Positions 19,333 to 62,705 are shown, counted from the first letter of the stretch. The stretch: DNA of 64,000 nucleotides from a virus (IMGVR_UViG_3300025011_000026), one strand, 5' to 3'. Numbers and translations are program-made. The notes: a model not told the origin generated them from the sequence alone.

Positions 19333-19346
19333 GAAGGAGGACTATA

Positions 19347-34902: not shown

Positions 34903-35970
34903 GTGTTCATTCTGGAACAAAACAATCAAAATACATATAACCCAGATTCTCTTGATTCTCTAGATTCTTTAGGCATATTAGGGGGAGTCAGGGCAAAACC
35001 TGCAAGAAAGGATAAAATTATGACCAAAGGTAAAATAGTGAATATTGGAGATAAATTTATAAGTAATAAAGGATATGAATACGAGGTTATAAATAAATTA
35101 AAAGGAGGAAAATATGAAGTTAGATTTAAAGATACAGGATATATAGCTAAGTCTGACAAAAAAGAAGTTTTAAATGGATGCATACGAGATTGGGAGGCTC
35201 CTTATGTCGTTGGTATAGGGATAGTTGGAAAAGAAATAGATCATCCCCAAAAGCATTATTTATATGATAGATGGAGAGATATGTTAAGACGGTGTTATGA
35301 TAATAGGTGTAATAGTTATTGTACATATGGAGCAGTAGGAGTAACAGTTGATGAAAAATGGTTTAGATTTATTAATTACGTAAATGATATCGAAACTAAG
35401 GAAAATTTTGAAAAATTAAAGATAAAAAATTGTGGTTGGGAAATAGATAAAGATTTAAAAGGGAATGGTACAAAAATATATTCTAATGCAACAACTTCAA
35501 TAATAAGAGAAGAAGAAAATATTAAAGAAAGAAATATCAGGCAAGATAATCCAGCAATAAAGCTTAAAATAAAAGTCATGCAATTTACAACAGAAGGCAA
35601 TTTTATTAAAACGCATGAGAGTATTACTGAAGCTATGAAGTTCATCGGTGTTATAAATGGTAGTGGCTCATGTATAATTGATTGTTGTAAAAGTAGAGCA
35701 AAGACAGCTTATGGGTTTGCATGGATGTATGAAAAAGATTTTATAGATTTTGAATCAGCTCGTATAAAAATAATACATAGATTAGAATATATTCCAGATA
35801 AGTATCGTAAAATAGTTTTGAAAATGGACAATGACTATAACATTATAGATGAATTTAAAGGGTTAAAAAGAGCATCTGAAAGTTTAGGTGCTACTGTTGG
35901 TGCAATAGCAAATGCCATAACAAGAGGGAACAAATGTAAAGGATTTATAGTGAGATACAAGGAGGAATAA
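34903..35970 (+). CDS. homing-endonuclease-like protein (W-x2-M-x2-RC / YG motif plus two NUMOD-like helix modules); true start may be ATG 35020
   Basis: YDRWRDMLRRCYD...YCTYGAVGVTVDEKWFRF pattern common to phage free-standing HEGs; C-terminal ITEAMKFIGV and ASESLGATVGAIANAI NUMOD1-like helices. Confidence 0.5.
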   Translation: MFILEQNNQNTYNPDSLDSLDSLGILGGVRAKPARKDKIMTKGKIVNIGDKFISNKGYEYEVINKLKGGKYEVRFKDTGYIAKSDKKEVLNGCIRDWEAPYVVGIGIVGKEIDHPQKHYLYDRWRDMLRRCYDNRCNSYCTYGAVGVTVDEKWFRFINYVNDIETKENFEKLKIKNCGWEIDKDLKGNGTKIYSNATTSIIREEENIKERNIRQDNPAIKLKIKVMQFTTEGNFIKTHESITEAMKFIGVINGSGSCIIDCCKSRAKTAYGFAWMYEKDFIDFESARIKIIHRLEYIPDKYRKIVLKMDNDYNIIDEFKGLKRASESLGATVGAIANAITRGNKCKGFIVRYKEE

Positions 35971-45130: not shown

Positions 45131-45559
45131 TTAACTATCTCTTTCTTCCATCATTTTTTCATATAATTTGTCTGCACTAATAACTCCTTCTTTAAAAGAT
45201 TGTTCAATAATTTCTGTTTCTTCTGAGCATAGAAAAATCATCTTTTTGATGTTGCCATTTACACCAGCACTTGCAGTCCACACATAACCATTCTCTTCTA
45301 GCCAATTCAATCCATTTATACAAGATTGGCGAGATAAACCAGTAAGTTTAATTAATTGAGAAATGCTGATCCAATCACCTGTTTTAGCAAATCCCCATGT
45401 TTTTCTAATCATTAAGAGATAAACCTTTAAAGCTGAGAAATTACTAATTCTAGGTATCAATTCATCAAATACAATATTAGGAACCTCCATATAATTTTTC
45501 TGTGGTTTAGGTAATCTGAACATGTTTTCATCCTTCTTTCTAGCAATAAAAACAGGCAA
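45131..45559 (-). CDS. putative replication initiator / replisome-organiser-like winged-HTH protein
   Basis: wHTH-like ISISQLIKLTGLSRQSCINGLNWLEENGYV; iterons start 6 nt after its stop. Confidence 0.45.
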   Translation of the reverse strand: MPVFIARKKDENMFRLPKPQKNYMEVPNIVFDELIPRISNFSALKVYLLMIRKTWGFAKTGDWISISQLIKLTGLSRQSCINGLNWLEENGYVWTASAGVNGNIKKMIFLCSEETEIIEQSFKEGVISADKLYEKMMEERDS

Positions 45560-46517: not shown

Positions 46518-47495
46518 TTACTCATCCATATCCCAATATTGTTTTCCTCCATCAAGATATGCTAAAGCATTAGTCAATTGAGGATGTTCACTTGATAACT
46601 TTGCTGTATTATCAAGTTTAATATTAAGATAAGGTAACAATACTTCGGCAGGGCCTCCCATGACACAAGTTTCTAATGCCTGTTGTAAATCAAATGTTTT
46701 TTCCAAAGAAGAAATTACATTATCGATATAATCTATAAGAATTTCATCTTTTGTCCTATCTAGATCATAACTTTGCTTTCGCAATGTAATCTCTGACCGT
46801 TTAAGATATTGCAATAATTCATGAGGTTTAAATCTAGTTCCATTCTTAGAATTAAAAGTTGTTGTAATTTGCTCTAGTATTTGATCAAAACCAAATTGTG
46901 TATAACTTACTTTAGAATCTAAAATTACTTCAGTATTTTCAGGATTAATATCGTCACCTTTACGCCATAATGAAGCATCTAAAGTTCCACCACCAAAATC
47001 TAAAACCAATAGGGGATATTCATATCTTCCTTTTTGAGAATCAGTTATTCCAGATTGAATGTAGCAAATAGAATCAGTTATTTCAATATTGATATTACCT
47101 CTATCATCACCGATATTAATAGTTTGTGCTTTCATAGTTTTTAATTTTTCAAGATATGCATTTGCATGTTGTTTGTAATAACCAGCCGGAGTACCAACTA
47201 CTAATTTAACTTTAATATCTTTACATTCTGGAAAACTTAAAGCAATAGAAGTTAATGTACATAAATCAAAATGTGTTGTGGTGTATTTATCTGGATTGAT
47301 ATAAATTTTTCCTTCTGGATCTCCTACAAGATGACTTAAGCCATCTTTTTTAACTAAGTAAGTATTACTTTTTAGTAGACCATCGCCCTCAGTATTAAAC
47401 TTAATTCTTGCTCTCAATACTATCCCTTTACTGGTTTTGTAGTACGAATTTCCTGCATCAAGACCTAAAATTTCTTCATCGTTCATCTCATTCAT
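46518..47495 (-). CDS. actin-like segregation ATPase (ParM/StbA/Alp family)
   Basis: phosphate-1 motif LGLDAGNSYYK, phosphate-2 LVLDFGGGTLDASLW, adenosine motif region; 325 aa. Confidence 0.7.
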   Translation of the reverse strand: MNEMNDEEILGLDAGNSYYKTSKGIVLRARIKFNTEGDGLLKSNTYLVKKDGLSHLVGDPEGKIYINPDKYTTTHFDLCTLTSIALSFPECKDIKVKLVVGTPAGYYKQHANAYLEKLKTMKAQTINIGDDRGNINIEITDSICYIQSGITDSQKGRYEYPLLVLDFGGGTLDASLWRKGDDINPENTEVILDSKVSYTQFGFDQILEQITTTFNSKNGTRFKPHELLQYLKRSEITLRKQSYDLDRTKDEILIDYIDNVISSLEKTFDLQQALETCVMGGPAEVLLPYLNIKLDNTAKLSSEHPQLTNALAYLDGGKQYWDMDE

Positions 47496-50273: not shown

Positions 50274-50279
50274 TTGATT

Positions 50280-50837
50280 ATGAAAAAACCAAACAAAAAA
50301 TTATTATTCTCTCTTGTATTATTAACATTATTATCAATACCACATCCTGTATCTGCCAAAGGAGAATTAACTACTAAACAAGCAAAAAGCATTTTAAACA
50401 TCATTATTGATAAAACTTATACAATTCTCACATATTCGTCTTCTCCTTGGATTTATCCTGTAGATGGAATTGTCACAAGTCCTTATGGGCCAAGAGAATC
50501 TTCGATAGATGGATTTCATCATGGGTTAGACATCTCTGCAGTAGAAAACACTCAAGTTCATTGTTCTAAATCAGGGATCGTAGTTAAAGCAGAATTTAAT
50601 GAAATGGTTGGAAATGTTGTGTGCATTAATCATTCAGATGGATTTCAAACTATGTATGCACACAACAATAAATTATTAGTCAAAGTTGGAGATAATGTAA
50701 ATCAAAATGATGTTATTGCATTGTCCGGTAATACTGGATTATTGTCAAGAGGAGCGCATGTACATTTTGAGATTCGTACCAATAATGGAACAAATTCATT
50801 AAATCCAATGAATTATTTACCTGCTAAACAAAAATAA
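50280..50837 (+). CDS. secreted M23 (LytM-type) peptidoglycan endopeptidase
   Basis: signal peptide KKLLFSLVLLTLLSIPHPVSA; M23 motifs HHGLDISA and HVHFEI. Confidence 0.75.
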   Translation: MKKPNKKLLFSLVLLTLLSIPHPVSAKGELTTKQAKSILNIIIDKTYTILTYSSSPWIYPVDGIVTSPYGPRESSIDGFHHGLDISAVENTQVHCSKSGIVVKAEFNEMVGNVVCINHSDGFQTMYAHNNKLLVKVGDNVNQNDVIALSGNTGLLSRGAHVHFEIRTNNGTNSLNPMNYLPAKQK

Positions 50838-50838
50838 A

Positions 50839-50855
50839 CCCCTCAAAATGAGGGG
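50839..50855. terminator. bidirectional intrinsic terminator CCCCTC-aaaat-GAGGGG
   Basis: follows M23 stop on + strand; on - strand followed by GGTTTATTTTTGTTT after the small peptide gene. Confidence 0.5.
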
Positions 50856-50881
50856 ATGAAGTAGGATCATATTGATATTCA

Positions 50882-50983
50882 TTATTGAATTAATCTTCCT
50901 AATTGTTGTGCAATATCAACTAATTGATATGATCCATACCCTATTAATCCTACTCCAATTGCTGTTCCAAATATTAAAAACAT
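50882..50983 (-). CDS. small hydrophobic peptide (33 aa, MFLIFGTAIGVGLIGYGSYQLVDIAQQLGRLIQ)
   Basis: RBS AAAGGAGTG 8 nt upstream of ATG on - strand; own terminator; Gly-zipper-like TM then amphipathic tail; below cutoff. Confidence 0.4.
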   Translation of the reverse strand: MFLIFGTAIGVGLIGYGSYQLVDIAQQLGRLIQ

Positions 50984-51227
50984 AAATTTTCACTCCTTTA
51001 AATCATATTTCATTAACTGTATTATTACCAAACTATATGTCGAATATACATGAATTGATGTAAATTTTAAGACAAGAACCCTATATTAGCCACCTATACC
51101 AAGGATAATACACCCTAAATCCTACAGTCCTTTAATATCAATGGTCTTAGACTTGAAAATGTGGGGTCTTCTTATATAAGGAGGCAGATTTGCCGACTGT
51201 TTTAATTTTCAAAGGAGGTTGTTTACA

Positions 51228-51479
51228 TTGAATGAATTTTTAAGTTGGTCAACAAAGATTTGTTTGGCTATGACTGCTCTTGGTGGAGGATTGGCTATGC
51301 TCATGATCGTCTGGTCTGGGGTCATGGACATCATCGGAAATGGGCAATGGAAAGCTCAAGCAAAAGAACTGAAAGAAAGTGTAATTCGTGGATGTATCAC
51401 TATAGTCGTTGGGCCTTGGATCATAAAAATCTTGTGGAGTATATTAAAAGGAATCTTTCCAACACTTCCTACATTTTAA
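51228..51479 (+). CDS. pilin-like two-TM protein (VirB2/TrbC-like), TTG start
   Basis: two hydrophobic helices flanking charged loop GNGQWKAQAKELKES; GGAGG 9 nt upstream of TTG 51228; first gene of T4SS-like cluster. Confidence 0.4.
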   Translation: MNEFLSWSTKICLAMTALGGGLAMLMIVWSGVMDIIGNGQWKAQAKELKESVIRGCITIVVGPWIIKILWSILKGIFPTLPTF

Positions 51480-51509
51480 TTATTACAATTATAAAGGGGA
51501 TGATCATAA

Positions 51510-52544
51510 ATGCTTACAGTTGGAGAAGTAGGAGATGCAATTATTAACTTTTTTATTAAACCACCATCTCCTGAAAATGTTGATATAATACATGGGGCAT
51601 TATTCAATGCTCCTTCTCCAGAAACAGTAGAGAGTGTCAATAATGCTCTATTTAATGCACCTACACAACAAGATATTACAACAGTCAATGGAAGATTAGA
51701 GCATTTTATTACTGACTCATTAGTACAAAACTTTGCACAATTATTTCTTCATACACCAAATGTATTGGCAGAAAACCCAACCATATTATCTTTATATACT
51801 TTCTTTTTAAAAATAATTATTTCATTTTCATTTGCAGGAATAGTATATTTTGGAATTATGCAAATCATGAATAAGGGTAGTAAACACAATACAACGGAAT
51901 ACATTGTTAAGATAGCTCAATCAATGGTAATTATAAATATAGCAATTATAGCATTGCCATTGCTAATTGAAGCAACAAACAAATTTACTATAGCAATTCT
52001 TTCTCTTGGTGGATCTGAAGCACAAATGGTAAAAGCATTAAGTCCTCAATATGGATTAGGATTAATCATATTCACATTAATTTTTGCATTAATTCTAATT
52101 AATCTAATATGGTTCTATTTCATGAGAATGATTTCTATTATGTTTCTAATTGCAACTGCTCCTATATTCTTCTTTTTATGGTTATTCCCTAAATATCAAA
52201 ATATGAGACAGGTTTGGATTGATGAATTATTAGATAATCTAATTGCACCAATTATACATGCAATAATTATGGTTATTTGGTTAGGGTTTGAATCATCAGT
52301 ATCAAAATCAAATCATGGAGCACTTTATCATGTAATGCTTTCCATAGCTGCTGGTTCATTTATGTTAAAAGCACCTTCTTATGTCCAACAATGGATTTCT
52401 CATGGTCATCAATCACCAAATCCTATACAAATGTTTAAAGAGATAAAGTATGGGTTAAGTCCTAGAAAACTTATCGGTTATGGAGGATTTGGAAGAATGG
52501 GAGGAAGTATGTTTAGAGGAAGAGGGACTACAAAAAGGAGGTAA
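51510..52544 (+). CDS. polytopic membrane protein, VirB6/TcpH-like
   Basis: N-terminal periplasmic-type region with ALFNAPS/ALFNAPT repeats then at least 5 predicted TM segments. Confidence 0.45.
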   Translation: MLTVGEVGDAIINFFIKPPSPENVDIIHGALFNAPSPETVESVNNALFNAPTQQDITTVNGRLEHFITDSLVQNFAQLFLHTPNVLAENPTILSLYTFFLKIIISFSFAGIVYFGIMQIMNKGSKHNTTEYIVKIAQSMVIINIAIIALPLLIEATNKFTIAILSLGGSEAQMVKALSPQYGLGLIIFTLIFALILINLIWFYFMRMISIMFLIATAPIFFFLWLFPKYQNMRQVWIDELLDNLIAPIIHAIIMVIWLGFESSVSKSNHGALYHVMLSIAAGSFMLKAPSYVQQWISHGHQSPNPIQMFKEIKYGLSPRKLIGYGGFGRMGGSMFRGRGTTKRR

Positions 52545-52548
52545 TTCA

Positions 52549-52896
52549 ATGTTTAATAATGAGATGTTTGAAACTAATCAAATCATTGAAATGAAAGACG
52601 AAATATTTTATGGACTTACAGGAAAACAAACTATTTATTTATTAGGTGGAATAGTGCTTAGTTTATCTGTATTTAATACTGCATTACCTATTATTGCAAA
52701 ACTATTCATTCTACCAAATATAGGTATTCCTACTGCAATTTTAACTAAAACTGATGTAGATCAAGGGATAGTTTCTTTCTTTAAATTCAAATGGAGAGGA
52801 GTGACAAAACAAAATGTTACAATACAATCTTTACCCAAAAGCAAATTATCTTTTAGTAACAAAAGAAGAGCAGACGCTACTTCGATCAAAGTTTAA
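52549..52896 (+). CDS. small 2-TM membrane protein (VirB3/PrgI-like, putative)
   Basis: ATG 52549 after AAAAGGAGG; hydrophobic hairpin IYLLGGIVLSLSVF...LPIIAKLFILP; precedes VirB4 gene as in T4SS loci. Confidence 0.35.
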   Translation: MFNNEMFETNQIIEMKDEIFYGLTGKQTIYLLGGIVLSLSVFNTALPIIAKLFILPNIGIPTAILTKTDVDQGIVSFFKFKWRGVTKQNVTIQSLPKSKLSFSNKRRADATSIKV

Positions 52897-54322
52897 GTAT
52901 TTATTAAATTCTCTAAATGAACCATTTAAGATTATTTGTAAAACTGACTTAAATCAATTAAACAAAGAAATACAAGTTAATGAGTCAAGTTATTCTCTTA
53001 CTACTAATGCAAATATTTACGAAAATTTGCGTAATTCTGGAATAGACTATACTCAAAATCAATTACTAATTGCAAGTAATATTCAAATAAAGGAGTATAG
53101 AAAGTACATTGGTGTTACTGAAAACAATGTAAAATATTTTGCTAAATCAATCAAGGTTATCCAATTTCCACAAATGCTTTCTACTGGATTCATAAACAAC
53201 TTAATGATTTCTGACACTGAAATTGCTCTTACAATCTTTCCATTGCCACAAGAAGAGGCTGTAAAGGCAGTAAAAAAGAGAATTGATACTACTGAAGCAA
53301 ATGCTAATTGGAAGGCCGTAAAGAACCCTAATCAAGAGTTTTATGTAGAAGATGAAATTGTATCAAAACTTCAAAAGACTATGGTTGATCTTATGGGTAA
53401 TGAGGAAAAACTTTGTATGGTTGGATTATATATTTTAATTAAAGGACAAACACTTGAACAATTAGAAACAAAATCAAAACAAATATCAATGCTTTTAGAT
53501 GGAATGCAAATCAGATTCAAATTCGCTAATTGTGAACATTTTAATTGTTTCAAGAATTTTAGATCATATAAAGAAATTGACTATGTAAAGGAGTTAAAAG
53601 TGTTTTTAACAAGTGTGATTAGTAATTTTTATCCATTTGTTAGATATGTATCAGGTGATGGAATTATAATTGGATATGATTATCAAAATTATCAATTAAT
53701 TAAGATTAATTTTGCAGAGCAATTCAATCTGTCATGGTTCATTTTTGGAATTTCAGGAAGTGGAAAATCATTTGCTGTGAAATCAATTGTCAAGAAAATA
53801 TCTAGTCATAAGAAGATTTATATTCTTGATATTACTGGTGAATACGCCAAATTAAAATCAAAGAATATTATCATTATATCTAAGGATTTTGAGAAATTCC
53901 TACTGTACACCGATTTTAAAGATTGCATGATTGTAATTGATGAAGCATGGGATATTTTAAAAACTGATGCAGTTATTAAAAGAGTGGTAGCAATTGCCAA
54001 AGGATACAGAAAACGAGGAGTAGGTGTTTTAGTCTGCACACAAAACATTGCTGATACAAGTAAAGAGGATATTGAATTAATTATTAAAAACTGTGCTAAT
54101 ACTTTAATTCTTCACTTAACCTCCTTAGAACTTCAACATATTAGTGAATACATGAATATACCATCTCATATTGTCGATTATCTTTCTAGGATTGAAAAAG
54201 GACAAGGATGGATGACCATAGGAACAAAGAAATATGCTTTTAGCCCCATATTTAGTAATGAAGAATATTTATTATTTAATACCAATTATGAGGAAATGAA
54301 AGGGGTTGGTTATAATGGGTGA
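52814..54322 (+). CDS. VirB4/TcpF/TrsE-family T4SS ATPase
   Basis: Walker A GISGSGKSF; DPKGEY-like ILDITGEY; Walker B VIDEAWD; RKRGVGVLVCTQN (RKYG...TQS motif). Confidence 0.7.
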   Translation: MLQYNLYPKANYLLVTKEEQTLLRSKFKYLLNSLNEPFKIICKTDLNQLNKEIQVNESSYSLTTNANIYENLRNSGIDYTQNQLLIASNIQIKEYRKYIGVTENNVKYFAKSIKVIQFPQMLSTGFINNLMISDTEIALTIFPLPQEEAVKAVKKRIDTTEANANWKAVKNPNQEFYVEDEIVSKLQKTMVDLMGNEEKLCMVGLYILIKGQTLEQLETKSKQISMLLDGMQIRFKFANCEHFNCFKNFRSYKEIDYVKELKVFLTSVISNFYPFVRYVSGDGIIIGYDYQNYQLIKINFAEQFNLSWFIFGISGSGKSFAVKSIVKKISSHKKIYILDITGEYAKLKSKNIIIISKDFEKFLLYTDFKDCMIVIDEAWDILKTDAVIKRVVAIAKGYRKRGVGVLVCTQNIADTSKEDIELIIKNCANTLILHLTSLELQHISEYMNIPSHIVDYLSRIEKGQGWMTIGTKKYAFSPIFSNEEYLLFNTNYEEMKGVGYNG

Positions 54323-56021
54323 AAAGATAAGCAAGATTAAAGATATGGCAATTAAATCAGGTAAATATTCTGCTTTGTATACTGGACAATTTATTTTAGG
54401 TGGATTAGGCTATGCTGTTCAAATTGCTTCAAATGGAATATTAGGAATGAGCATTCCAGATTATAAACTGCCTAATTTGAAGTTTGGAGATGATAAAACT
54501 TCATTAGGAGATAGGGTAGTGTTAACTCCTAGTAAATTTCTTCTTAAAGGAAATGGCATAGTAATTGGCAAAGACTATAATACAAAAAATGTACTTACTT
54601 ATCCTGTAGATCATTTTGACGATCTTATGAAAAATTTTATTTATGTTGGGTCTCCTGGAAGTGGAAAATCAAATTTAGCAGAAAATATAGCAGTTCAAAT
54701 ATCTAAAATTAATAATTTACCTAATTTTAATACAGCAGGATTTTGTGTGATAGATGTAGCTGATGGAGCATTGATTGATAATATTTTAATGTCTATTCCT
54801 GAAAACAGATTGGAAGATGTAGTTTTATTAGATTTCTCTAATAAAGATTTTCTGCCAGGAATTAACCTTCTAGAATTCGATGAAAAAGTAGAGAAACAAT
54901 TCCCACACTTTATTCATGCTGAAATAATCTCATTCTTTAAAAAACGATTTGGTGAACAAATTGGTTATGCTAGTGAGGATCTTTTATCAAACTCGTTGAA
55001 CGCAATTCTGAAACAAACTGACTATCCTAAAACACTATTAGGAATTATCAAAATGCTAACTGAAGTAGAATATCGTGAACAAATAGTTGCATCTTTGAGA
55101 AAAAATAAAAGGAATGCTTCAGTAGTCAGATATTGGGATAGATTTGAAGCTCAATCTCCTTCTGTTAAAAGAGATATGGTTAAGCCTTTATTAAATAAAG
55201 TTGGAAATTTAACCAATAATGATTATTTAAAATCTATTATATGTCAAAACAAATCTACCATAGATTTTAGAAAAATTATGGATAGTGGCAAAATTCTTCT
55301 TATAAAAGCACCAAAGGTTGCTGTCGGAAAAGTTAATATAGAAATATTGATACCATTGATTCTTTCAAAGTTTTGGATCGCTGCTTTATCAAGATTTGAT
55401 ATTACTAATACTAATTTACGCCGTCCATTCTTTGCCTTTCTTGATGAACCTCAAATGTATCTATCAAATGAAGCAGGAATAGAAGAAATGTTGACGGAAA
55501 TGAGAAAGTATAGATTTGGACTTCATTTTTTCTTTCAATCCCCTGAACAAACGCAACTTCAATCAGTTATCAAAATGATGTTAGAAGTCAATCCTCAAAT
55601 TATATCATTTGCTATGGGTAGAGGTGGAGCACAAACATTATTTAGAGAATTTGAAACTGGTGATGAAGAAAAAGACATGTCAAATAGATATGCAATTCTT
55701 AATCTCCCAAAACATCACGCACTTTGTAGATTTTTATATAAAAGCGAAAAGAGTGTATCTATTATTAAATGCGATCCTCCAATTAAACCTTTGCGTAAAA
55801 AAGTACCTGATATTATTACTGAAAACAGTCAAATGTATTTACGTTCTGTTGATGAAATTATGGAAGAAATTCTTGAATCGGATTATATCCCTGAACCAGA
55901 TTTTAGTTTAGGGGAGGTGAGCAATAATGAACAGCAAAGATTTAATGTTGAAAAAATTGATTGTGGGCCAAAAATACGCCCATTTAACGGCGAGAGATTT
56001 AGAGATAATAAGAAGTATTAG
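54315..56021 (+). CDS. T4SS coupling-protein-like (VirD4/TcpA/FtsK-HerA superfamily) P-loop ATPase
   Basis: N-terminal hydrophobic segment; Walker A VGSPGSGKSN; Walker B FAFLDEPQ; RKYRFGLHFFFQSPEQ. Confidence 0.5.
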   Translation: MGEKISKIKDMAIKSGKYSALYTGQFILGGLGYAVQIASNGILGMSIPDYKLPNLKFGDDKTSLGDRVVLTPSKFLLKGNGIVIGKDYNTKNVLTYPVDHFDDLMKNFIYVGSPGSGKSNLAENIAVQISKINNLPNFNTAGFCVIDVADGALIDNILMSIPENRLEDVVLLDFSNKDFLPGINLLEFDEKVEKQFPHFIHAEIISFFKKRFGEQIGYASEDLLSNSLNAILKQTDYPKTLLGIIKMLTEVEYREQIVASLRKNKRNASVVRYWDRFEAQSPSVKRDMVKPLLNKVGNLTNNDYLKSIICQNKSTIDFRKIMDSGKILLIKAPKVAVGKVNIEILIPLILSKFWIAALSRFDITNTNLRRPFFAFLDEPQMYLSNEAGIEEMLTEMRKYRFGLHFFFQSPEQTQLQSVIKMMLEVNPQIISFAMGRGGAQTLFREFETGDEEKDMSNRYAILNLPKHHALCRFLYKSEKSVSIIKCDPPIKPLRKKVPDIITENSQMYLRSVDEIMEEILESDYIPEPDFSLGEVSNNEQQRFNVEKIDCGPKIRPFNGERFRDNKKY

Positions 56022-56691
56022 GGATTTTAAAATATTCTCCAGAACTCAAATTCAAATAATGTTCTTTCAATCCAAACAAAGTTTAACTATTTGCAATCGA
56101 AGGCTGGCTGAAATTGAAAGATTAGAATTTATAAAAAGGACACCAATAGCATTAAATGGGGAATCATTAGTCACTGCGGGAAAATTGCTTTGTCAAATTG
56201 GTGGGGTATATATATCAAAATTACCATCCGACTATACGCATCAACTATTAATAAATGAAATTTATGCTTTATTGTTCAGAGAGCAGAATTTAAATAGAAT
56301 TACTATCAAGCAATATAAACCAGAATTTGTTTACAGATACAAAGATAGAGAAAATGGCAAACAATATATTTTTAGGTCTGATATATTAGTTGTATTAACT
56401 AAGAATAATCAAGATACCACTTTGCTATTCGAAATTGATGCCGGAACAGAAAGCAAGAAACAATTAAGAGAAAAGATTGCTGTTTATGAAAAAGTGTCTC
56501 AAAAAGTGAAAGGGTTTCCTCGATTATTCTGGTTGACTAATACATTGGGATATCGAAAATTAACAAATTTAGATAAACAAATTAATATTGCTCAAGTAGA
56601 AGAATTGAGAAACGACTTTTATATTTTTACTCGTTACCCAGATATGAAGAAGATTAAATTAATTCCTGATATTGTGGTCTGGAAAATATAA
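55927..56691 (+). CDS. Replic_Relax (replication-relaxation) family protein
   Basis: N-terminal wHTH LTARDLEIIRSIRDFKIFSRTQIQIMFF typical of the family; follows T4SS ATPases. Confidence 0.45.
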   Translation: MNSKDLMLKKLIVGQKYAHLTARDLEIIRSIRDFKIFSRTQIQIMFFQSKQSLTICNRRLAEIERLEFIKRTPIALNGESLVTAGKLLCQIGGVYISKLPSDYTHQLLINEIYALLFREQNLNRITIKQYKPEFVYRYKDRENGKQYIFRSDILVVLTKNNQDTTLLFEIDAGTESKKQLREKIAVYEKVSQKVKGFPRLFWLTNTLGYRKLTNLDKQINIAQVEELRNDFYIFTRYPDMKKIKLIPDIVVWKI

Positions 56692-56712
56692 CTGGAACGG
56701 AGATGTTTAATT

Positions 56713-56880
56713 ATGGGATTTATAAGTAATTTAATTAGTGGTTTTGATAAGCCAGAAATTGATATTGATGAATTAGTAAATTTTATAATTGAAGAAACAC
56801 ATGTTAGTAGAGATATTATAGAATTGATTTTAGATACCGAGGAAATTTATTTAAGGATGAGAGGAATTATTATTGATTAA
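56713..56880 (+). CDS. small acidic protein (55 aa)
   Basis: ATG 56713 with weak RBS; followed by intrinsic terminator; below cutoff. Confidence 0.3.
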   Translation: MGFISNLISGFDKPEIDIDELVNFIIEETHVSRDIIELILDTEEIYLRMRGIIID

Positions 56881-56886
56881 GATTTT

Positions 56887-56914
56887 AAGGATGATTTAAT
56901 TATCATCCTTTTTT
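56887..56914 (+). terminator. intrinsic terminator AAGGATGAT-ttaatt-ATCATCCTT + TTTT
   Basis: 9-bp perfect stem followed by T-run; closes the T4SS-like operon. Confidence 0.55.
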
Positions 56915-56956
56915 AATATATTTTATAAAAAAATGATTGACAAGGTATTATTTGCC

Positions 56957-56984
56957 TTGTTTTTGTGTATATTTAATGTATAAT
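56957..56984 (+). promoter_or_regulatory. candidate promoter (TTGTTT-N16-TATAAT, TG directly abutting -10) for the DGQHR-like gene; a consensus TTGACA lies at 56937 but 36 nt from the -10
   Basis: read directly. Confidence 0.35.
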
Positions 56985-57006
56985 GAACGGAAAGGACTGA
57001 TTTGAG

Positions 57007-58557
57007 ATGAAAATTCTATTTTCTGATAAAGTTAAGGATATTAAATTGGAAGGAGATATACATGATATGAGTAGGAAAAGTAAGGAGAGATTTACACAGA
57101 TGGATATTGGTTTGGTTAATGCAGTAAAGGAAGAGGTGATGAACGGAATGAGTGATAATCACTCAGAAGAAGATCAAGAAATGATTCAGGAGATGGAAAG
57201 CATCACTCGTGAAGAAACTGCCGTTGGTTATGAGAGTGCAAATAGTTTTGAAGAGAATAGTAAAAGTGGAGATGTTATTAATTTGGGTGAGAAATCTATG
57301 CCAGCATTTGGTAGTTTAAGTGAAAAGACTAAAATAGAAGAGTCAAATGGGGATGATAAAGAGCAAATGTCAACTGAAGAATTTAATGAAACTAGAAATG
57401 AAGTTTTAGATAGTAAGAGTGAGTTCGAAAAGAAAAAGGAATTAAGAGAAGCAAATAAATTGAAACGAGATATGAGAAGTAAATTAAAGCAATTAGACAG
57501 TGAAAATGATGATAAATCATGGGAACTAAACAATGTCCAAATCGTCTTGCGTGATGGTAAGCCTTATAAATATTTGGTATCACTATCTTGTATGCAGTTG
57601 GCTGAGTGGTATATCTCTAAAAAGCTGATTTACGATTTTGGCGTACAAAGAGGCAGTAAAACCAATAAAAAAGGCGAGGAAGTACCTATACTTTTTCTAA
57701 AACATTGCAATGATATCAAAACTGCAATTTTAGATGGGTCAATTCACGGGGGAACATTGAGTCTAAATTTGCCTACTGACAATAATACACAACTTTTTTA
57801 TGACGAAGACAATATGACTTTAAGTTCTGACGTTCCCTTAACCATAAATGATGGTTTTCACCGCATATATGCAAGTTATTTGTGGTATAAGGAATTTGTT
57901 AAACCAAATAGTACATGTAAAAGTCCTGAAACGTTCTATTTTCCAGCCAATATTGAGCATATTAGTAGACAAGCGAGTTGTGATTTATTCAAAGAATATG
58001 CGGTTATGGGGAAATCTATTAGTAAGAACAGGATTAGTGTCCATAATGTATTTGATAAAAATTATGAAATCACACAGAGGGTTGCAAAATCATCTCAACT
58101 TCGTGGACGTATAGAAATGATTTCTAATTCAATTAAAAGAAGTAGTCCTTGCATTTTTACTTATGGTACAATATTAAATGGAGTATCTGAATTTAAGGTT
58201 ATTACTCAGGGGAAAGAAGAAGAAGTTGGTAATTTCATCATTGAGTTCTTAAATGAATTAATCGAATTATTTCCTAATCTAATGGGTCATGTTGATTCAG
58301 AAACAAGAGCGATAGAAAAACAAAAGAGTTTTGTACTCGAAAAAATGTTTCAAAATTCTTATTTTGTGTTAGCTAGTCAATTACAAGGTAAAGATGATTG
58401 GAAGAGTAGATTGGCTAAATTGACACAAAACAATTTCCTATCAAGAAGTAATCCAATGTGGGGCTTTTGCCTTAGAGAAGGCGAAAAAATAGTGAATTCT
58501 TCAAAGGTGCAAAAAACAATTACTGAGAAAATTATTGACTATGTGATGGCAAACTAA
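57007..58557 (+). CDS. ParB/Srx-fold DGQHR-like (DndB/DUF262-related) protein with long acidic N-terminal extension
   Basis: FGVQRG motif followed about 75 aa later by INDGFHRI (DGQHR/DGQQR-type motif); own promoter and terminators. Confidence 0.45.
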   Translation: MKILFSDKVKDIKLEGDIHDMSRKSKERFTQMDIGLVNAVKEEVMNGMSDNHSEEDQEMIQEMESITREETAVGYESANSFEENSKSGDVINLGEKSMPAFGSLSEKTKIEESNGDDKEQMSTEEFNETRNEVLDSKSEFEKKKELREANKLKRDMRSKLKQLDSENDDKSWELNNVQIVLRDGKPYKYLVSLSCMQLAEWYISKKLIYDFGVQRGSKTNKKGEEVPILFLKHCNDIKTAILDGSIHGGTLSLNLPTDNNTQLFYDEDNMTLSSDVPLTINDGFHRIYASYLWYKEFVKPNSTCKSPETFYFPANIEHISRQASCDLFKEYAVMGKSISKNRISVHNVFDKNYEITQRVAKSSQLRGRIEMISNSIKRSSPCIFTYGTILNGVSEFKVITQGKEEEVGNFIIEFLNELIELFPNLMGHVDSETRAIEKQKSFVLEKMFQNSYFVLASQLQGKDDWKSRLAKLTQNNFLSRSNPMWGFCLREGEKIVNSSKVQKTITEKIIDYVMAN

Positions 58558-58571
58558 AAATGGTAAAAATA

Positions 58572-58607
58572 AGAGTAATAATCACAAATTAAAGTGATTA
58601 TTACTCT
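58572..58607. terminator. bidirectional terminator: perfect 14-bp stem AGAGTAATAATCAC/GTGATTATTACTCT, 8-nt loop
   Basis: between convergent genes 57007..58557 (+) and 58621..60339 (-); AT-rich on both sides. Confidence 0.55.
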
Positions 58608-58620
58608 ATTATATTATTTA

Positions 58621-60339
58621 CTACTTATAAATTCCCCAAACCAATTTTTCACCAGTTTCAGGATGTTTACCAGCCGATTTTTGATTGCCACTGCAACATC
58701 TAGATATGCCATTCGCAGACATATTATATTTTATTGAAGCATCCAACATACTCTCAAAAATTTCATTTGTTGTTATACAAATTACCTTTTTCTTACAAGA
58801 ATCATAATTTTCTGCTTTAGCATTTTTTAAACTATATTCTATTTCATCTTCTGTTTTCAAAAGATATTTTTCATAATACATCCAAACCAATGGCTCACCA
58901 GTTATCGACTTACCTGCTGATTTATGCTTACCTTTACAACATGCAGATATATTTGGTCTTATTGATTCTCTGCCATTGAATGAAGCTTCATATATAGAAT
59001 CAAATATTTCTCCAGTTGTAATGCAAATCACTTTCTCGCATATTTCTTCTTTTGGGTTATAAGAACACCATCCTAATTCTGTTCCTTTTTTAAGATAACT
59101 CCTTATCGCACTACTACTCAAATTTAAATTTTCCCCTATTTTAACTGTGCTTTTAATTCCTTCATTCCATAAACTACATGCTGTTTTAACTAAATTTCTA
59201 CACCCTGCTTCTTGCACTCTTAACCAATCTATATCTTCTTCAGTAAAATTTAATAACTCTGGCAATTTACTATTCATAATACTGTCCCTTATCCACCCTA
59301 TTTCAGACGTTCTGCAATCAATTATTAAATAATTTTTAATTTTATTACTCCTAGCCAACCATTCCTTATCAAAATCATTGATTTGTATATCATCTAATGA
59401 ATCCCACTTACTTTTCGTTTCTTCGTAGTGTTGAATTCCTTGACACTCTATCACACCATTTATTTTATTTATGTATATGTCATATCTATAATTTTCACAC
59501 CATTTAAAAGTAGTTTTTGATAATTGAATGATAAATGTTTCGTGTAATTGTTCTAAAACATTTATCATAACCTTTTCGGGGATGCTCACACCATCTCCAC
59601 ATCTGTTGCAACCGAAACCGTGATTTACTAAGTTAGAAATTTTAATCATTTTTTCATAACCACAATCAGGACATTTAGTTAATACATATTCACCTGACCC
59701 AAAAGAATATTTATGTGCATCATTTATATTCACAAAGAAATGTGTTAAATGAGGATGTGTGACAAAAATAGTATTGCACATATCACAATCTAGACTACCC
59801 TTTTGTCCTCCTGTAAAAGAACTTATATGTTTTTGTTCAGGTTTGTGTTCTGGATTATCTAAACAATTAAACCAATATCCTTTTTTATCTATGCCTTGTG
59901 AAGCAAAACTTACATCTTTGGGAGATAATTTATTACCATCTTTATCAACATTCAGTTCGCAATTCCAACGATTAATTATTATATCTGCTTCATTTTTATT
60001 TTTATTATCATAGCACCATTTGTAAAAAGATGTCCATTGTTTATCTCCTGCGTTTGCACATCTTAAACAATAATATTTTCCATCTTCTCTAACTTGTGAA
60101 GTATAGTCAGACCACCTTATATTTTCTAATAATTTTCCACATCCATCACATTCAATATTTACAAATACTCTGGCCTTATCTTGTAGATCCTCTACTTTAA
60201 CTTTTATTATTGCACCTCGTATATATTTTTCTTCGCCATTCTTATTTATGTATTTTGGTATCTCATATCCTTTTGCTTCATACCATTTAATATTTTTACT
60301 ACCTAACCCAACCTCAGCCTCTTTTGTTATCAATCCCAT
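58621..60339 (-). CDS. multi-zinc-ribbon protein with central Vsr/DUF559-like endonuclease core and two C-terminal about 60-aa tandem repeats
   Basis: CDGC..C.RC, CDMC, CPDC, CNRC ribbons; YRYDIYINKINGVIECQGIQHYEE resembles the DUF559/Vsr motif (DF...IEvDG.qH); repeats VICITT.EIF.S...CC.G..KSAGK...GE.LVW x2. Confidence 0.5.
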   Translation of the reverse strand: MGLITKEAEVGLGSKNIKWYEAKGYEIPKYINKNGEEKYIRGAIIKVKVEDLQDKARVFVNIECDGCGKLLENIRWSDYTSQVREDGKYYCLRCANAGDKQWTSFYKWCYDNKNKNEADIIINRWNCELNVDKDGNKLSPKDVSFASQGIDKKGYWFNCLDNPEHKPEQKHISSFTGGQKGSLDCDMCNTIFVTHPHLTHFFVNINDAHKYSFGSGEYVLTKCPDCGYEKMIKISNLVNHGFGCNRCGDGVSIPEKVMINVLEQLHETFIIQLSKTTFKWCENYRYDIYINKINGVIECQGIQHYEETKSKWDSLDDIQINDFDKEWLARSNKIKNYLIIDCRTSEIGWIRDSIMNSKLPELLNFTEEDIDWLRVQEAGCRNLVKTACSLWNEGIKSTVKIGENLNLSSSAIRSYLKKGTELGWCSYNPKEEICEKVICITTGEIFDSIYEASFNGRESIRPNISACCKGKHKSAGKSITGEPLVWMYYEKYLLKTEDEIEYSLKNAKAENYDSCKKKVICITTNEIFESMLDASIKYNMSANGISRCCSGNQKSAGKHPETGEKLVWGIYK

Positions 60340-60856
60340 AAATCTATCCCCTTCCTTAATAGGTTTAAAAATGGGAATAAGACACTCAAACTCTAAGGAA
60401 AGTTCAAGTGTCTCGTTTTACGCCTAAAACTCTGGCCTGAATTTTAGACAACCATATTTATTCCAACCTAATCCAATCCCAAACCATCACAAAACAAAAA
60501 GAGGAATTTATCTTCATAAATTCCTCTTCAAACAAATTCCTTATTCCCAACCAAAACCCTATTTCTCCCTAGTCCCTAAATACAAAATAAAACATAAATA
60601 TCCTACAATACATAAAACAAATAAATACTTCATATCTTTAATATATTCCCACCTTAATTAAATCAATCTCTAAATAATTTAAATCCTCTCTAAAAACACC
60701 ACTCTGTAACCCAATCATACCAACACTTTCAGACCCACAATAATTCCATTCGCACAAAAACAACCCTAGAATCAATCAGAATTATCTTCTAGTATAATTG
60801 TTCCACTCGATAAATCAAGACGCTTAAATGGTGGTTTAATTTGTGATATTTTAAAC

Positions 60857-61240
60857 TTATTTTGTTTCCTCTTTTACTTCTTTGGTATCTTCTACTACAA
60901 CTCCATCAATTTTAAATTTACCACTAATAAAACTGGATAATTTAACCAAAACTTCCTTACCATAATAAAGGTAGCCAGACATCATAAGTAAATAAGTTGC
61001 ATTTGATAAATTTATTTCTTTTCCATCTACACTTACAAGAAGTATATTGGGATTTAACTGTCCTATGAAGCAAACACAAATAAAAGAGATCGAAACTACA
61101 ATCCCTTTGAAAACTCCTTGCCATAACTTCGTCTTGTCAAATTGCTTTAAAAAAAATGAATTTACTGAACCCAAGACGATATTCAAAACTATTAAACCTA
61201 AAAGACTGCCACCAAGTAATAGGGTATTTTGATCAATCAT
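60857..61240 (-). CDS. holin-like membrane protein (127 aa)
   Basis: at least 2 TM helices plus charged C-terminal tail; adjacent to XhlA-like and amidase genes. Confidence 0.5.
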   Translation of the reverse strand: MIDQNTLLLGGSLLGLIVLNIVLGSVNSFFLKQFDKTKLWQGVFKGIVVSISFICVCFIGQLNPNILLVSVDGKEINLSNATYLLMMSGYLYYGKEVLVKLSSFISGKFKIDGVVVEDTKEVKEETK

Positions 61241-61254
61241 TTAAATACATCTCC

Positions 61255-61728
61255 TTAAATTTTAATTCCATATTTCCCTGCGACAAACGCCGATATTAAT
61301 AGACTTATTACAGCCAACGCCTTCAAAACCATCTTCGTATTATTATTTAGTCTAATTTTAGTAATTTCATTTCCTCCTTTTGCTTCAACTTTTGCAAGTT
61401 CATTGTTGCTTTTAGAATTAGATTGTGCAATACTAGAAATTGTGGAAACAAGCAAATTTGTGGATTGATAATTATTGTTTTCTATTCTTGTCAAACAACT
61501 TTTAACTTCTGAAAATTGCAAATCTATTGAATTGAATCTCTCATCATTTGTGGCTCCTCTAATTTGAAGCGCAGTAATTTCATCATCATGGTGATTTATT
61601 TTTTGATCGTGTTTTTCTATCTTTTCAGAATTATAAGATATCCTTTTTTCATGATCCTCAAGTTTAACAATAATTTCATTTTCATCCACTTCCAACACCT
61701 CTTCCATAATTATATTTTTATTTTGCAT
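61255..61728 (-). CDS. XhlA-like lysis-associated protein (coiled coil plus C-terminal TM)
   Basis: His-rich coiled coil EDHEKRISYNSEKIEKHDQKINHHDDEITALQ; C-terminal TM MVLKALAVISLLISAFVAG. Confidence 0.45.
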   Translation of the reverse strand: MQNKNIIMEEVLEVDENEIIVKLEDHEKRISYNSEKIEKHDQKINHHDDEITALQIRGATNDERFNSIDLQFSEVKSCLTRIENNNYQSTNLLVSTISSIAQSNSKSNNELAKVEAKGGNEITKIRLNNNTKMVLKALAVISLLISAFVAGKYGIKI

Positions 61729-61964
61729 TTGACTTTTACCCCTTTCTGTGTTAAACTAACGTCAATGGATGCAATATTTAGAGTATTGCAAACAGGAGAC
61801 AGTCCAGATCGGGCAATAATCTGGCTGTCATACATACTACAACTGAATAAATAAATAAAATTAATTAGATTTACTAAATGTAAAAATAATATTAAATAAT
61901 TTAGTAGATTAAAAGAGATGTAAAACAAATTACACCTCTAATTTGGCATTAAATAAAAAAAATA

Positions 61965-62705
61965 TTAAGCAAGTTCTAATTTTTTGCAAGCATATCCCAT
62001 TTTAATGATTTGCTTAATTACTTCTTCAGATTTAGATTCAAGAACACGAACAGATAGATAAATATCTTTATCTGTTTTTATTGTTGTGTCTGTTTTTACA
62101 TCTGCCACTTTAAATACAACTCCTTCCTTATAAACTATTCCAAAATAAATACAAACACTTTTAGCAATATTCACAGCAATTTGTTGTCTAATATTTGCAT
62201 CTGCTAATTTAGCATTATCATTTTTATTATCTAAAAACGCAGTTTCTAATAATACTGCTGGCATATTTGTGTCCCTAATTACTGCAAAATTTGATACTTT
62301 AATTCCTCTATTATAGAATAATTGTCCCATCATAGGATTTAAAATTTTAGCAAATCTTTCTGCATTTCCATTCAATCCAAATACATGACAAGTTGTGCCA
62401 AATGCCTGAGAATTAAAGGCATCACAATGGACAGAAAGAAATAAATCTGTTTTATTTGAATTTGCTATTTGACATCTTGTATTTAATGAAGCATTAACTG
62501 AAGATCCATTTCCATTTACAGTCCCTCCATCACGAGTCATAATAACTTTAACTCCATTTAACTCAATTAATATTTTTGCACGTTTGCAAATATCTAAAAC
62601 TATATCTTCTTCATGAAGACCAAAGCCTGAACATCCTGTATCAGCATTTGTAATTGACTGATGTCCTGCGTCTAATGTTATTGAATAACTCATTTTTACC
62701 TTCAT
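61965..62705 (-). CDS. N-acetylmuramoyl-L-alanine amidase (Amidase_3 family) endolysin
   Basis: LDAGHQ, LFLSVHCDAFN and AVLLETAFLDN zinc-ligand motifs typical of Amidase_3. Confidence 0.8.
   Translation of the reverse strand: MKVKMSYSITLDAGHQSITNADTGCSGFGLHEEDIVLDICKRAKILIELNGVKVIMTRDGGTVNGNGSSVNASLNTRCQIANSNKTDLFLSVHCDAFNSQAFGTTCHVFGLNGNAERFAKILNPMMGQLFYNRGIKVSNFAVIRDTNMPAVLLETAFLDNKNDNAKLADANIRQQIAVNIAKSVCIYFGIVYKEGVVFKVADVKTDTTIKTDKDIYLSVRVLESKSEEVIKQIIKMGYACKKLELA

What the first reader, a model, noticed from the sequence alone, without database searches (positions are those of the whole stretch)
56887..60420. Insulated convergent gene pair: DGQHR-like ParB/Srx-fold protein facing a Vsr/DUF559-like zinc-ribbon nuclease; candidate defence or selfish island
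The pair sits between the T4SS-like operon and the lysis cassette, a typical accessory hotspot. 57007..58557 has its own promoter and is flanked by strong terminators (56887..56914 and the shared bidirectional hairpin at 58572..58607). It carries a QR...DGFHR signature, related to DndB DGQHR and DUF262/GmrSD DGQQR. These are ParB/Srx-fold NTP-binding or nicking domains that recur in anti-phage systems. It also has a roughly 170-aa acidic N-terminal extension. Its convergent partner is a 572-aa protein with several CxxC ribbons, a DUF559/Vsr-like endonuclease core and tandem C-terminal repeats. This combination does not match any named system I recognise. It could be a prophage-encoded superinfection-exclusion or anti-plasmid module.
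Basis: partly seen in the sequence, partly recalled or inferred. Interest (0 to 1): 0.75.

Follow-up and report, generated by a model that had tools for sequence, protein, structure and literature searches.

The report
Homing endonuclease beside phage DndB-like gene

Summary

The "defence pair" reading is not supported. Neither protein has a credible PADLOC match. P2-like genes occur at several places per genome in cultured phage groups where the P1 search found no relative. Among P1 relatives the convergent neighbour varies: many Vsr-type architectures, a GIY-YIG+NUMOD3 endonuclease, an unclassified protein, a methyltransferase, or no nuclease. An occupied/empty pair of loci with 93% identical P1 genes exists.

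P2 fits the zinc-finger + EDxHD/Vsr-like homing-endonuclease outgroup reported in 2025. P1 is a distant relative of SPbeta YopQ, a conserved phage gene of unknown function.

The new detail is a two-hairpin 5' leader RNA with covariation. It is found only at this slot and has no Rfam match.

Overall this is a new member of a known kind, of modest interest.

The parts
56887..56910 (+). Terminator-like hairpin ending the upstream ATPase/Replic_Relax operon. A second hairpin lies at 56939-56961.
   Evidence: Terminator scan and direct reading of the sequence.
57007..58557 (+). P1: a 516-aa DndB/YopQ-like protein with a ParB/Srx fold.
57007..57390 (+). P1 residues 1-128: an acidic, disordered N-terminal extension that carries short conserved motifs (MIFKF, VNxVKEEV, PxFGSLS). 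A long helix at residues 125-163 follows it.
   Evidence: AF2 pLDDT below 50 for residues 1-128. Alignment A1. pI 4.69 for residues 1-170.
57514..58554 (+). P1 folded region, residues 170-516: a ParB/Srx-type core followed by a helical C-terminal domain. QRG lies at 57646-57654 and DGFHR at 57850-57864.
58572..58607 (.). Shared bidirectional terminator hairpin between the convergent genes. Homology with other P1 loci ends at about 58607-58619, which marks the left edge of the nuclease cassette.
   Evidence: Terminator scan on both strands. blastn breakpoints against L019, L007 and L031. L031/L032 breakpoint about 45 nt past the P1 stop codon.
58621..60339 (-). P2: a 572-aa free-standing Vsr-like (EDxHD-outgroup) homing endonuclease.
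60142..60339 (-). P2 N-terminal module, residues 1-66. It is shared at 48-62% identity with the otherwise different DUF7487-type nuclease of L019.
   Evidence: blastp among slot occupants. phrog_12131 and phrog_5104 matches.
59596..60150 (-). Three Cys/His metal-binding ribbons: C64/C67/C91/C94, C159/H165/C185/C188 and C223/C226/C244/C247. The last is DUF4379-like.
   Evidence: Invariant or nearly invariant in 64 relatives. Weak Pfam DUF4379 match at residues 207-248. CxxC positions.
59305..59583 (-). Vsr-like nuclease core, residues about 253-345, with candidate catalytic residues D287, E298, H304 and D322 (and K325).
59044..59226 (-). Helix-turn-helix region, residues about 372-432.
58627..59031 (-). 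Two tandem C-terminal repeats of about 55 aa (residues 437-492 and 517-571), likely NUMOD-like DNA-binding modules. Copy number varies among relatives. The same module ends the GIY-YIG endonuclease of L011.
60340..60475 (-). Conserved structured 5' leader of the nuclease gene. In order: hairpin 1, a GUAAAACGAGA box, hairpin 2, a UCUUAUUCC box, the Shine-Dalgarno sequence, then the start codon.
   Evidence: Conserved before different nuclease ORFs. RNAalifold finds 12 of 23 pairs with compensatory changes. Pair-count controls. Fold z-score -3.5. Covariance-model hits only at this slot. No Rfam match.
60498..60529 (-). Terminator-like hairpin that separates the lysis-cassette transcript from the nuclease cassette.
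   Evidence: Terminator scan. Equivalent hairpin plus T-run seen in the related leaders.

Best explanation
The window is part of a large, AT-rich, uncultivated Firmicute phage from groundwater. It carries its own replisome.

P1 is a conserved backbone gene of this phage lineage. It is a DndB/YopQ-type ParB/Srx-fold protein and most likely a nucleotide-dependent DNA-binding regulator. That function is inferred by analogy, not shown.

P2 is a free-standing homing endonuclease. Its zinc ribbons, HTH and tandem repeats would read a long DNA site, and its Vsr-like core would cut it. Repair of a cut, nuclease-free phage genome from the nuclease-carrying genome during co-infection would copy the cassette into the same place.

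The cassette is a separate transcription unit. It consists of a terminator, a structured leader RNA that probably restrains or times translation, the ORF, and the shared terminator. It sits in a slot immediately after the P1 terminator, and nuclease genes have been repeatedly replaced or lost there.

Shown: the folds, the motifs, the variable occupancy of the slot, the independence of the two families, and the covariation in the leader.

Inferred: cleavage activity, the target site (probably in or next to the 3' end of the P1 gene) and the role of the leader.
For: Nature of the element:
- It encodes DnaB, a primase, a PolIII-alpha-type polymerase, RNR, topoisomerase II, thymidylate synthase, endolysin and two further HNH endonucleases.
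- Identical contigs come from groundwater metagenomes.

P2 as a nuclease of a homing-endonuclease family:
- D287, E298, G301, H304, D322 and K325 are invariant in 64 relatives.
- PHROG families annotated as homing endonuclease match it.
- The architecture fits the CapR/DUF4379/DUF723 + EDxHD/Vsr outgroup described in PMC12350094.

Mobility-type distribution:
- P2 relatives occur in 174 cultured phage records, with 5-6 places per genome in Staphylococcus phages.
- P1 relatives occur in only 14 records, from other genera.
- One phage contig carries two paralogues at different loci.
- A C. perfringens phage has a relative between structural genes.

Variable slot next to P1 homologues:
- P2-type proteins of 570-752 aa; shorter zinc-finger/Vsr-type proteins of 327, 331, 405 and 471 aa; a DUF7487 type; a GIY-YIG+NUMOD3 type; an unclassified 300-aa protein; an N6/N4 methyltransferase; or no nuclease.
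- Nuclease type does not follow P1 similarity. The 80% relative has the DUF7487 type, while the 32-37% relatives have the P2 type.
- L031 and L032 share 93% nucleotide identity over the P1 gene only, and only L032 carries the cassette.
- End modules are shuffled between nuclease classes, as reported for phage homing endonucleases (PMC10448857).

Regulation: the cassette is insulated by terminators. Regulatory RNA hairpins upstream of the start codon are a known feature of T4 homing endonuclease genes (PMC2988022).
Against: - The slot is occupied in most P1-family loci examined. The same leader is kept even where P1 identity falls to about 29%. That is more persistent than the classic sporadic pattern of a homing endonuclease, and it could mean a retained function.
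- A P2-family gene also lies next to a YopQ-like gene in a different arrangement, in tandem and without the leader, in L028. The association recurs.
- No cleavage site, no homing event and no co-conversion tract was demonstrated. The 3' end of the P1 gene is only mildly more similar between the window and L019 (92-95% against about 80%).
- The C-terminal repeats do not themselves reach Pfam NUMOD thresholds.
Confidence: 0.65

Rival explanations
1. P1 and the convergent nuclease form a functional two-gene module. It could be a split analogue of the fused ParB-like + nuclease enzymes (GmrSD, BrxU, SspE, DndI), or an inter-phage exclusion module. P1 would sense or mark DNA and the nuclease would act as a swappable effector.
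For: - Those enzymes couple a ParB-like NTPase to a nuclease (PMC11662687).
- The slot beside P1 is filled in most loci, and its leader is conserved across P1 identities of about 29-100%.
- Adjacency recurs in a second arrangement in L028.
- Swapping of effector domains is also typical of conflict systems.
Against: - No credible PADLOC match for either protein.
- L031 and L033 have a P1 gene but no nuclease.
- YopQ, Perkons ORF65 and the C. difficile phage DGQHR protein have no nuclease neighbour.
- P2 relatives occur in multiple copies in phage groups where the P1 search found no relative, and at unrelated loci.
- Nuclease type is incongruent with P1 relatedness.
- The two genes are convergent and separately terminated, so they are not co-transcribed.
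Confidence: 0.17
2. P2 is a domesticated phage nuclease that is no longer mobile. It might process host or competitor DNA or serve as a sequence-specific regulator, expressed under the control of the leader RNA.
For: - The ORF is intact, with all family-invariant residues present.
- The conserved leader implies selection on expression.
- The slot is persistently occupied.
Against: - The presence/absence polymorphism, the multiple architectures at one site and the variation in repeat number indicate ongoing turnover, not a fixed function.
- Family members occur in multiple copies in other phages.
Confidence: 0.1
3. P1 is the DndB or DpdB component of a DNA-modification pathway (phosphorothioation or 7-deazaguanine), and P2 is the cognate restriction nuclease.
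For: Pfam assigns P1 to the DndB family. A weak TIGR03187 DGQHR match exists.
Against: - No DndC, DndD, DndE, DpdA or Que enzymes were found among about 45 ORFs of the window scanned with Pfam or PHROGs.
- The TIGR03187 score of 26.6 is far below the 58.85 cut-off.
- Relatives sit in varied phage contexts without modification genes.
Confidence: 0.03

Closest known systems
EDxHD/Vsr-like homing endonucleases: I-Bth0305I, and the zinc-finger (CapR/DUF4379/DUF723-like) + Vsr-like outgroup noted in phage introns (PMC3239194, PMC2677866, PMC12350094)
   Same: - Conserved acidic and His residues with the same D-to-H spacing of 17.
- Several zinc-binding modules of about 60 aa placed N-terminal to the nuclease.
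- Occurs in phages, either free-standing or in introns.
- The family is very large and mostly unannotated.
   Different: - Undetectable by sequence against PDB.
- The motif reads D...ExxGxQH...DxxK, not the canonical EDxHD.
- P2 adds an HTH and two or more NUMOD-like repeats C-terminal to the nuclease, plus a 66-aa N-terminal module.
- I-Bth0305I is intron-encoded and carries its NUMOD motifs at the N-terminus.
- No activity data exist for P2.
Free-standing seg and mob homing endonucleases of T4-like phages, and the homing-endonuclease hotspots and domain shuffling described for ICP1 and other phages (PMC2988022, PMC10448857)
   Same: - An intergenic cassette beside a conserved phage gene.
- Different endonuclease classes at one locus.
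- Modular DNA-binding domains exchanged between nuclease classes.
- Regulatory RNA hairpins upstream of the start codon.
   Different: - The catalytic family differs: Vsr-like here, GIY-YIG or HNH there.
- The leader here is a two-hairpin element with conserved boxes. A consistent RBS-sequestering helix could not be shown.
- The neighbouring gene is a DndB/YopQ-like gene, not nrd, a polymerase gene or a terminase gene.
SPbeta YopQ (10.1101/2021.11.22.469490; PMC8612738) and Dnd-system DndB
   Same: - ParB/Srx fold with the QR...D(G)xHR signature.
- The profile built from the P1 family detects YopQ at E 4e-28.
- YopQ is a conserved core gene of large temperate Firmicute phages.
- DndB is an ATP-modulated DNA-binding repressor (cited).
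   Different: - Only about 23% identity to YopQ.
- P1 is not flanked by the YopP/YopR integrase-like regulators. It ends an operon with T4SS-like ATPases.
- It has a 128-residue disordered acidic N-terminus.
- No dnd genes are present.
- The function of YopQ itself is unknown.
GmrSD, BrxU, SspE and DndI (DUF262 ParB-like NTPase fused to a nuclease)
   Different: - In those enzymes the two domains are fused and the nuclease is of the His-Me (DUF1524/HNH) type.
- Here the genes are convergent and independently distributed, and the nuclease is Vsr-like.
- No credible PADLOC match.

Membership tests
Homing endonuclease (free-standing, Vsr-like/EDxHD superfamily) | Catalytic domain with the Vsr/EDxHD nuclease fold and conserved active-site residues | tested here: met
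   [not shown]
Homing endonuclease (free-standing, Vsr-like/EDxHD superfamily) | Modular DNA-binding domains (NUMOD, HTH or zinc-finger) attached to the nuclease | tested here: met
   [not shown]
Homing endonuclease (free-standing, Vsr-like/EDxHD superfamily) | Sporadic presence/absence at a fixed site among related genomes | tested here: met
   L032 (occupied) and L031 (empty) share 93% identical P1 genes. L033 has a methyltransferase at the site instead. Other nuclease classes occupy it in L009 and L011. Caveat: most loci are occupied.
Homing endonuclease (free-standing, Vsr-like/EDxHD superfamily) | Paralogues at several loci, with a distribution independent of any one neighbouring gene | tested here: met
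   5-6 places per genome in Staphylococcus phages. Two paralogues on one contig. A copy in the structural module of a C. perfringens phage.
Homing endonuclease (free-standing, Vsr-like/EDxHD superfamily) | Site-specific cleavage of the nuclease-free allele, followed by gene conversion (homing) | not testable with these tools
   Needs an in vitro cleavage assay and mixed-infection crosses.
DndB / DGQHR family (ParB/Srx fold) | Match to the family profile above the curated threshold | tested here: met
   Pfam PF14072 at 59.6 bits against a 29.1 cut-off. NCBIfam TIGR03187 DGQHR reaches only 26.6 against 58.85, so that model is not met.
DndB / DGQHR family (ParB/Srx fold) | QR and DGQHR motifs on a ParB/Srx fold | tested here: met
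   [not shown]
Dnd phosphorothioation system (DndB as its regulator) | Linkage to dndCDE (and dndA/iscS) modification genes | tested here: not met
   No such genes among the ORFs scanned in the 64-kb window or in the neighbourhoods of relatives.
Known anti-phage defence systems (PADLOC-DB v2) | Either protein matches a defence-system profile | tested here: not met
   P1 has no hit. P2 has only a chance-level Csa3 hit at E 0.018.
GmrSD/SspE/DndI-type ParB-like + nuclease enzymes | ParB-like NTPase and nuclease fused, or obligately linked | tested here: not met
   The genes are separate and convergent. Linkage is broken in L031, L033, SPbeta, Perkons and LIBA6276 and in all cultured phages that carry P2 relatives.

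The most novel reading that the evidence does not exclude
The site downstream of the DndB/YopQ-like gene may be a dedicated, regulated locus that the phage lineage retains. It would have a fixed, previously uncatalogued two-hairpin leader RNA driving interchangeable site-specific nucleases. The locus might work with or against the adjacent ParB/Srx-fold protein in conflicts between phages, for example marker exclusion aimed at rival alleles of the P1 gene, or a split GmrSD-like sensor and effector. On this reading it would be more than a passive landing pad for selfish genes.
Probability: 0.15. Interest if true: 0.6.

Novelty: new member of a known kind. Interest (0 to 1): 0.3.

Why it matters
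This result mainly corrects a mis-filing. A pair of convergent genes that looks like a new defence module is better explained as a conserved phage gene plus a homing endonuclease.

Three points have some value beyond that:
- It adds a well-modelled, full-length example to the large, barely annotated zinc-finger + Vsr-like outgroup of homing endonucleases. In this example an HTH and repeat domains follow the nuclease.
- It documents one slot where many nuclease architectures, sharing end modules, replace each other behind one conserved leader RNA with covariation. That gives a tractable case for studying homing-endonuclease turnover and regulation.
- It links the uncharacterised SPbeta core protein YopQ to a wider family in uncultivated Clostridia-type phages.

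Tried and rejected
- Near-identity DNA searches of 56000-61500 against phage and plasmid collections found nothing.
- Sequence searches of both proteins and both family profiles against PDB gave only chance-level hits.
- The full 29-sequence P1 alignment was too divergent for a locus scan. A 10-sequence alignment found 5 metagenome loci and no IMG/VR loci.
- Rfam gave no match above threshold anywhere in 56000-62000.
- An SD-sequestering third helix is predicted in the window leader but not consistently in the other leaders, so it is not claimed.
- The AATATKGGTT box upstream of hairpin 1 is not a recurrent promoter-like motif in the window.
- The Dnd/Dpd modification-pathway idea was rejected because no partner enzymes were found.
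- The 300-aa neighbour in L009 has an HNH-like motif by eye, but no family model supports that. It is left unclassified.
- The co-conversion signal between the window and L019 is weak.
Full report
**What is there**

The window has about 28% G+C and encodes a phage replication and nucleotide-metabolism set:
- DnaB-like helicase, primase, exonuclease and a PolIII-alpha-type polymerase;
- RNR, topoisomerase II subunits and thymidylate synthase;
- a ParM-like partition protein, an endolysin, and two HNH endonuclease-like ORFs inside these modules.

Contigs carrying identical copies of P1 come from groundwater metagenomes. The closest named relative of P2 is from a Clostridium sp. MAG. No similar DNA exists in the cultured phage or plasmid collections.

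The two ORFs of the finding are exactly as described. Upstream lie a DUF87/TraG-type ATPase, a 571-aa protein and a Replic_Relax protein. Downstream, on the minus strand, lie holin-like, XhlA-like and amidase genes.

Terminator-like hairpins lie at 56887-56910, 56939-56961, 58572-58607 (scored on both strands) and 60529-60498. There are six in the region against 1.8 expected. Promoter-like matches are no more frequent than in shuffles, so P1's 'own promoter' is not established.

**P1 (57007-58557, +)**

- Family: Pfam places it in DndB (59.6 bits against a 29.1 cut-off, residues 269-510). NCBIfam's DGQHR model scores only 26.6 against 58.85. PADLOC finds nothing.
- Conservation: twenty-nine relatives were found, all from metagenomes. 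Q214, R215, G216, D282, H285 and R286 are invariant.
- Model: the AlphaFold model has residues 1-128 disordered, a long helix at 125-163 and a confident fold from about 170 to 516. The N-terminal 170 residues are acidic, with pI 4.7, and carry short conserved motifs.

Distant homologues in cultured phages are few: 14 records.
- In SPbeta-like phages the homologue lies at the yopQ position, between two integrase-like genes.
- Perkons ORF65 also lies between two integrase genes.
- The 'DGQHR domain protein' of the large C. difficile phage LIBA6276 lies between dnaE and RNR.
- The P1-family profile detects these proteins at E 1e-43 to 4e-28.

YopQ is a conserved SPbeta core protein with a ParB_N/Srx domain. 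It is co-transcribed with the master repressor YopR in lysogens and is dispensable, and its role is unknown. No Dnd- or Dpd-type modification enzymes were found in the window.

**P2 (58621-60339, -)**

- Family: PHROGs matches are phrog_4538 (3.8e-68), phrog_9084 'homing endonuclease' (5.5e-21) and phrog_559 (1.1e-16). Pfam gives only a sub-threshold DUF4379 treble-clef hit. The family is large, with more than 400 clusters.
- Conservation: in 64 aligned relatives the invariant or nearly invariant residues define three Cys/His sites and the core D287...E298-x-x-G-x-Q-H304...D322-x-x-K325.
- Repeats: the two C-terminal repeats are 55% identical.

[quoted passage not shown] The prototype EDxHD enzyme and its relation to Vsr are described in PMC3239194.

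**Is it a pair?**

I examined the neighbourhoods of P1 relatives. The gene convergent to P1 differs from locus to locus:

| Locus | Convergent neighbour |
|---|---|
| window, L007, L013, L015, L022, L043, L049 | P2-family proteins of 570-752 aa with one to several repeats |
| L017, L048, L032, L042 | shorter zinc-finger/Vsr-type proteins of 327, 331, 405 and 471 aa |
| L019 | 441-aa DUF7487 protein sharing only the first 66 residues with P2 |
| L011 | SegE-type GIY-YIG + NUMOD3 endonuclease whose last 60 residues are P2's repeat module |
| L009 | unclassified 300-aa protein |
| L033 | N6/N4 DNA methyltransferase |
| L031 | no nuclease |

Nuclease type does not follow P1 relatedness. The 80%-identical P1 has the DUF7487 type, while P1 proteins of 32-37% identity have the P2 type.

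L031 and L032 share 93% nucleotide identity over the P1 gene alone, from about 100 nt upstream to 45 nt downstream. Only L032 has the cassette. Homology between the window and other loci ends at 58607-58619, just past the shared terminator.

P2 relatives also occur without any P1 relative nearby:
- at 5-6 places per genome in Staphylococcus phages; there are 174 phage records in all, and none comes from the genera that hold P1 relatives;
- between structural genes of a C. perfringens phage;
- among early genes of a Mammaliicoccus phage, where it is annotated as a homing endonuclease;
- between dNMP-kinase and rep_O/ParA genes in a 154-kb contig.

This is the pattern of a free-standing homing endonuclease in a hotspot. 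Class turnover and domain shuffling of this kind have been described for other phages (PMC10448857).

**What argues the other way**

- The slot is filled in most loci examined.
- On the same 154-kb contig a second P2 paralogue lies directly upstream of a YopQ-like gene (profile E 5.6e-20) that is followed by a MrpR/YopR-like gene. Adjacency to this gene family therefore recurs in a different arrangement.
- This fits a lineage of endonucleases whose target lies in or beside the DndB/YopQ-like gene. It does not exclude a functional link, and I give that rival 0.17.

**The leader**

The 80-165 nt upstream of the P2 start codon are conserved at 69-92% in front of nuclease ORFs that differ from one another.

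Seven leaders align into this order: terminator, AT-rich stretch, hairpin 1, GUAAAACGAGA box, hairpin 2, UCUUAUUCC box, SD, AUG.

- RNAalifold predicts the two hairpins, with compensatory double changes at 12 of 23 pairs.
- In the pair-count controls, 92.4% of cells are paired against 76.2% in shuffles (0 of 500 reach the observed value) and 31-56% in slid registers. Several conserved G-U pairs place the structure on the sense RNA strand.
- The window leader folds with z = -3.5.
- A covariance model finds the element once in the window. Among the other loci it is found only at nuclease genes beside P1 homologues, not at P2 relatives elsewhere.
- A pattern scan of IMG/VR followed by the model added nine more hits, six of them distinct sequences. 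The ORFs that follow are P2-type or DUF4379-type nucleases, except one cut off after 27 residues by the contig end. A convergent P1-like gene was detected in six of the nine loci. The pairing statistics are similar, with the caveat that this alignment is fitted to the model.
- Rfam has no match.
- A helix that sequesters the SD appears in the window fold but not consistently in the others.

Regulatory hairpins in front of homing endonuclease genes are well known in T4 (PMC2988022), so this leader is a new instance of a known theme.

**Mechanism proposed**

*Shown:* a separately terminated cassette encodes a multi-module DNA-binding protein with an intact Vsr-type active site. The cassette is polymorphic at a fixed site immediately after the P1 terminator.

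*Inferred:*
- P2 cuts nuclease-free alleles of this locus during co-infection.
- Recombinational repair copies the cassette and flanking DNA into the cut genome. This would also help explain why the P1 gene itself behaves as a mosaic unit.
- The leader limits or times expression.
- P1 is a backbone gene whose product binds DNA in a nucleotide-dependent way, like DndB, KorB or ParB. Its specific role is unknown.

**Verdict**

- The 'selfish' alternative is supported for P2.
- The defence or exclusion 'pair' and the claim of an unnamed new system are not supported.
- Novelty: new member of a known kind.
- Interest: 0.3, mostly for the slot with its conserved leader RNA.

Noticed in passing
window 60340-60475 (-), with the terminator at 60498-60529: A two-hairpin 5' leader RNA with conserved GUAAAACGAGA and UCUUAUUCC boxes and clear covariation. 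It precedes different nuclease ORFs at this slot only and has no Rfam family.
   Followed up: yes
window 19311-20318 (+) and 34903-35970 (+): Two further HNH-type endonuclease-like ORFs (the second has a NUMOD1 match). One lies between the exonuclease and DNA polymerase genes, the other just upstream of the topoisomerase II genes. The phage is rich in homing-endonuclease-like genes.
   Followed up: partly
L031 2269-3996 against L032 1921-3672: A 93%-identical block confined to the P1 gene, from about 100 nt upstream to 45 nt downstream, sits between otherwise unrelated flanks. The DndB-like gene itself behaves as a mosaic unit exchanged between phages.
   Followed up: partly
window 50274-56691 (+); L009, L013, L015, L017 and L019 upstream of P1: In the relatives, an ATPase of about 790-800 aa (weak T4 coupling-protein-like match in L013) and an M23 peptidase directly precede P1. 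In the window, the M23 peptidase (50274-50837) is separated from P1 by a weakly TrbL/VirB6-like ORF, a DUF87/TraG-type ATPase, a 571-aa protein and a Replic_Relax protein. This is a T4SS-like gene set inside a phage.
   Followed up: partly
window 45131-45559 (-) and 46518-47495 (-): A Phage_rep_O-like protein and a ParM/ALP-type actin-like partition protein. They suggest plasmid-like maintenance (a phage-plasmid lifestyle), as described for large C. difficile phages.
   Followed up: no
L028 2493-6837: A second P2-family paralogue lies in tandem upstream of a YopQ-like gene and a MrpR/YopR-like repressor gene, with a PemK-toxin-like gene nearby. The association between this nuclease family and the DndB/YopQ family recurs in a different layout.
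   Followed up: partly
L011 9430-10749 (-): A TnpB/IS605 OrfB-type (Cas12f1-like_TNB) gene lies about 0.8 kb from the GIY-YIG endonuclease beside the P1 homologue. It is another mobile element at the same hotspot.
   Followed up: no
window 57007-57390 (P1 residues 1-128): The disordered acidic N-terminus keeps short conserved peptides (MIFKFDK, RFxQMD..VVNxVKEEV, AVGFESL, PxFGSLS) while its length varies widely. These look like short linear interaction motifs.
   Followed up: no
window 60340-60856: A 517-bp non-coding stretch with a strong strand bias: GC skew is -0.51 for 60001-61000, so the minus strand is G-rich. Only the 165 nt next to P2 are conserved in related loci.
   Followed up: partly
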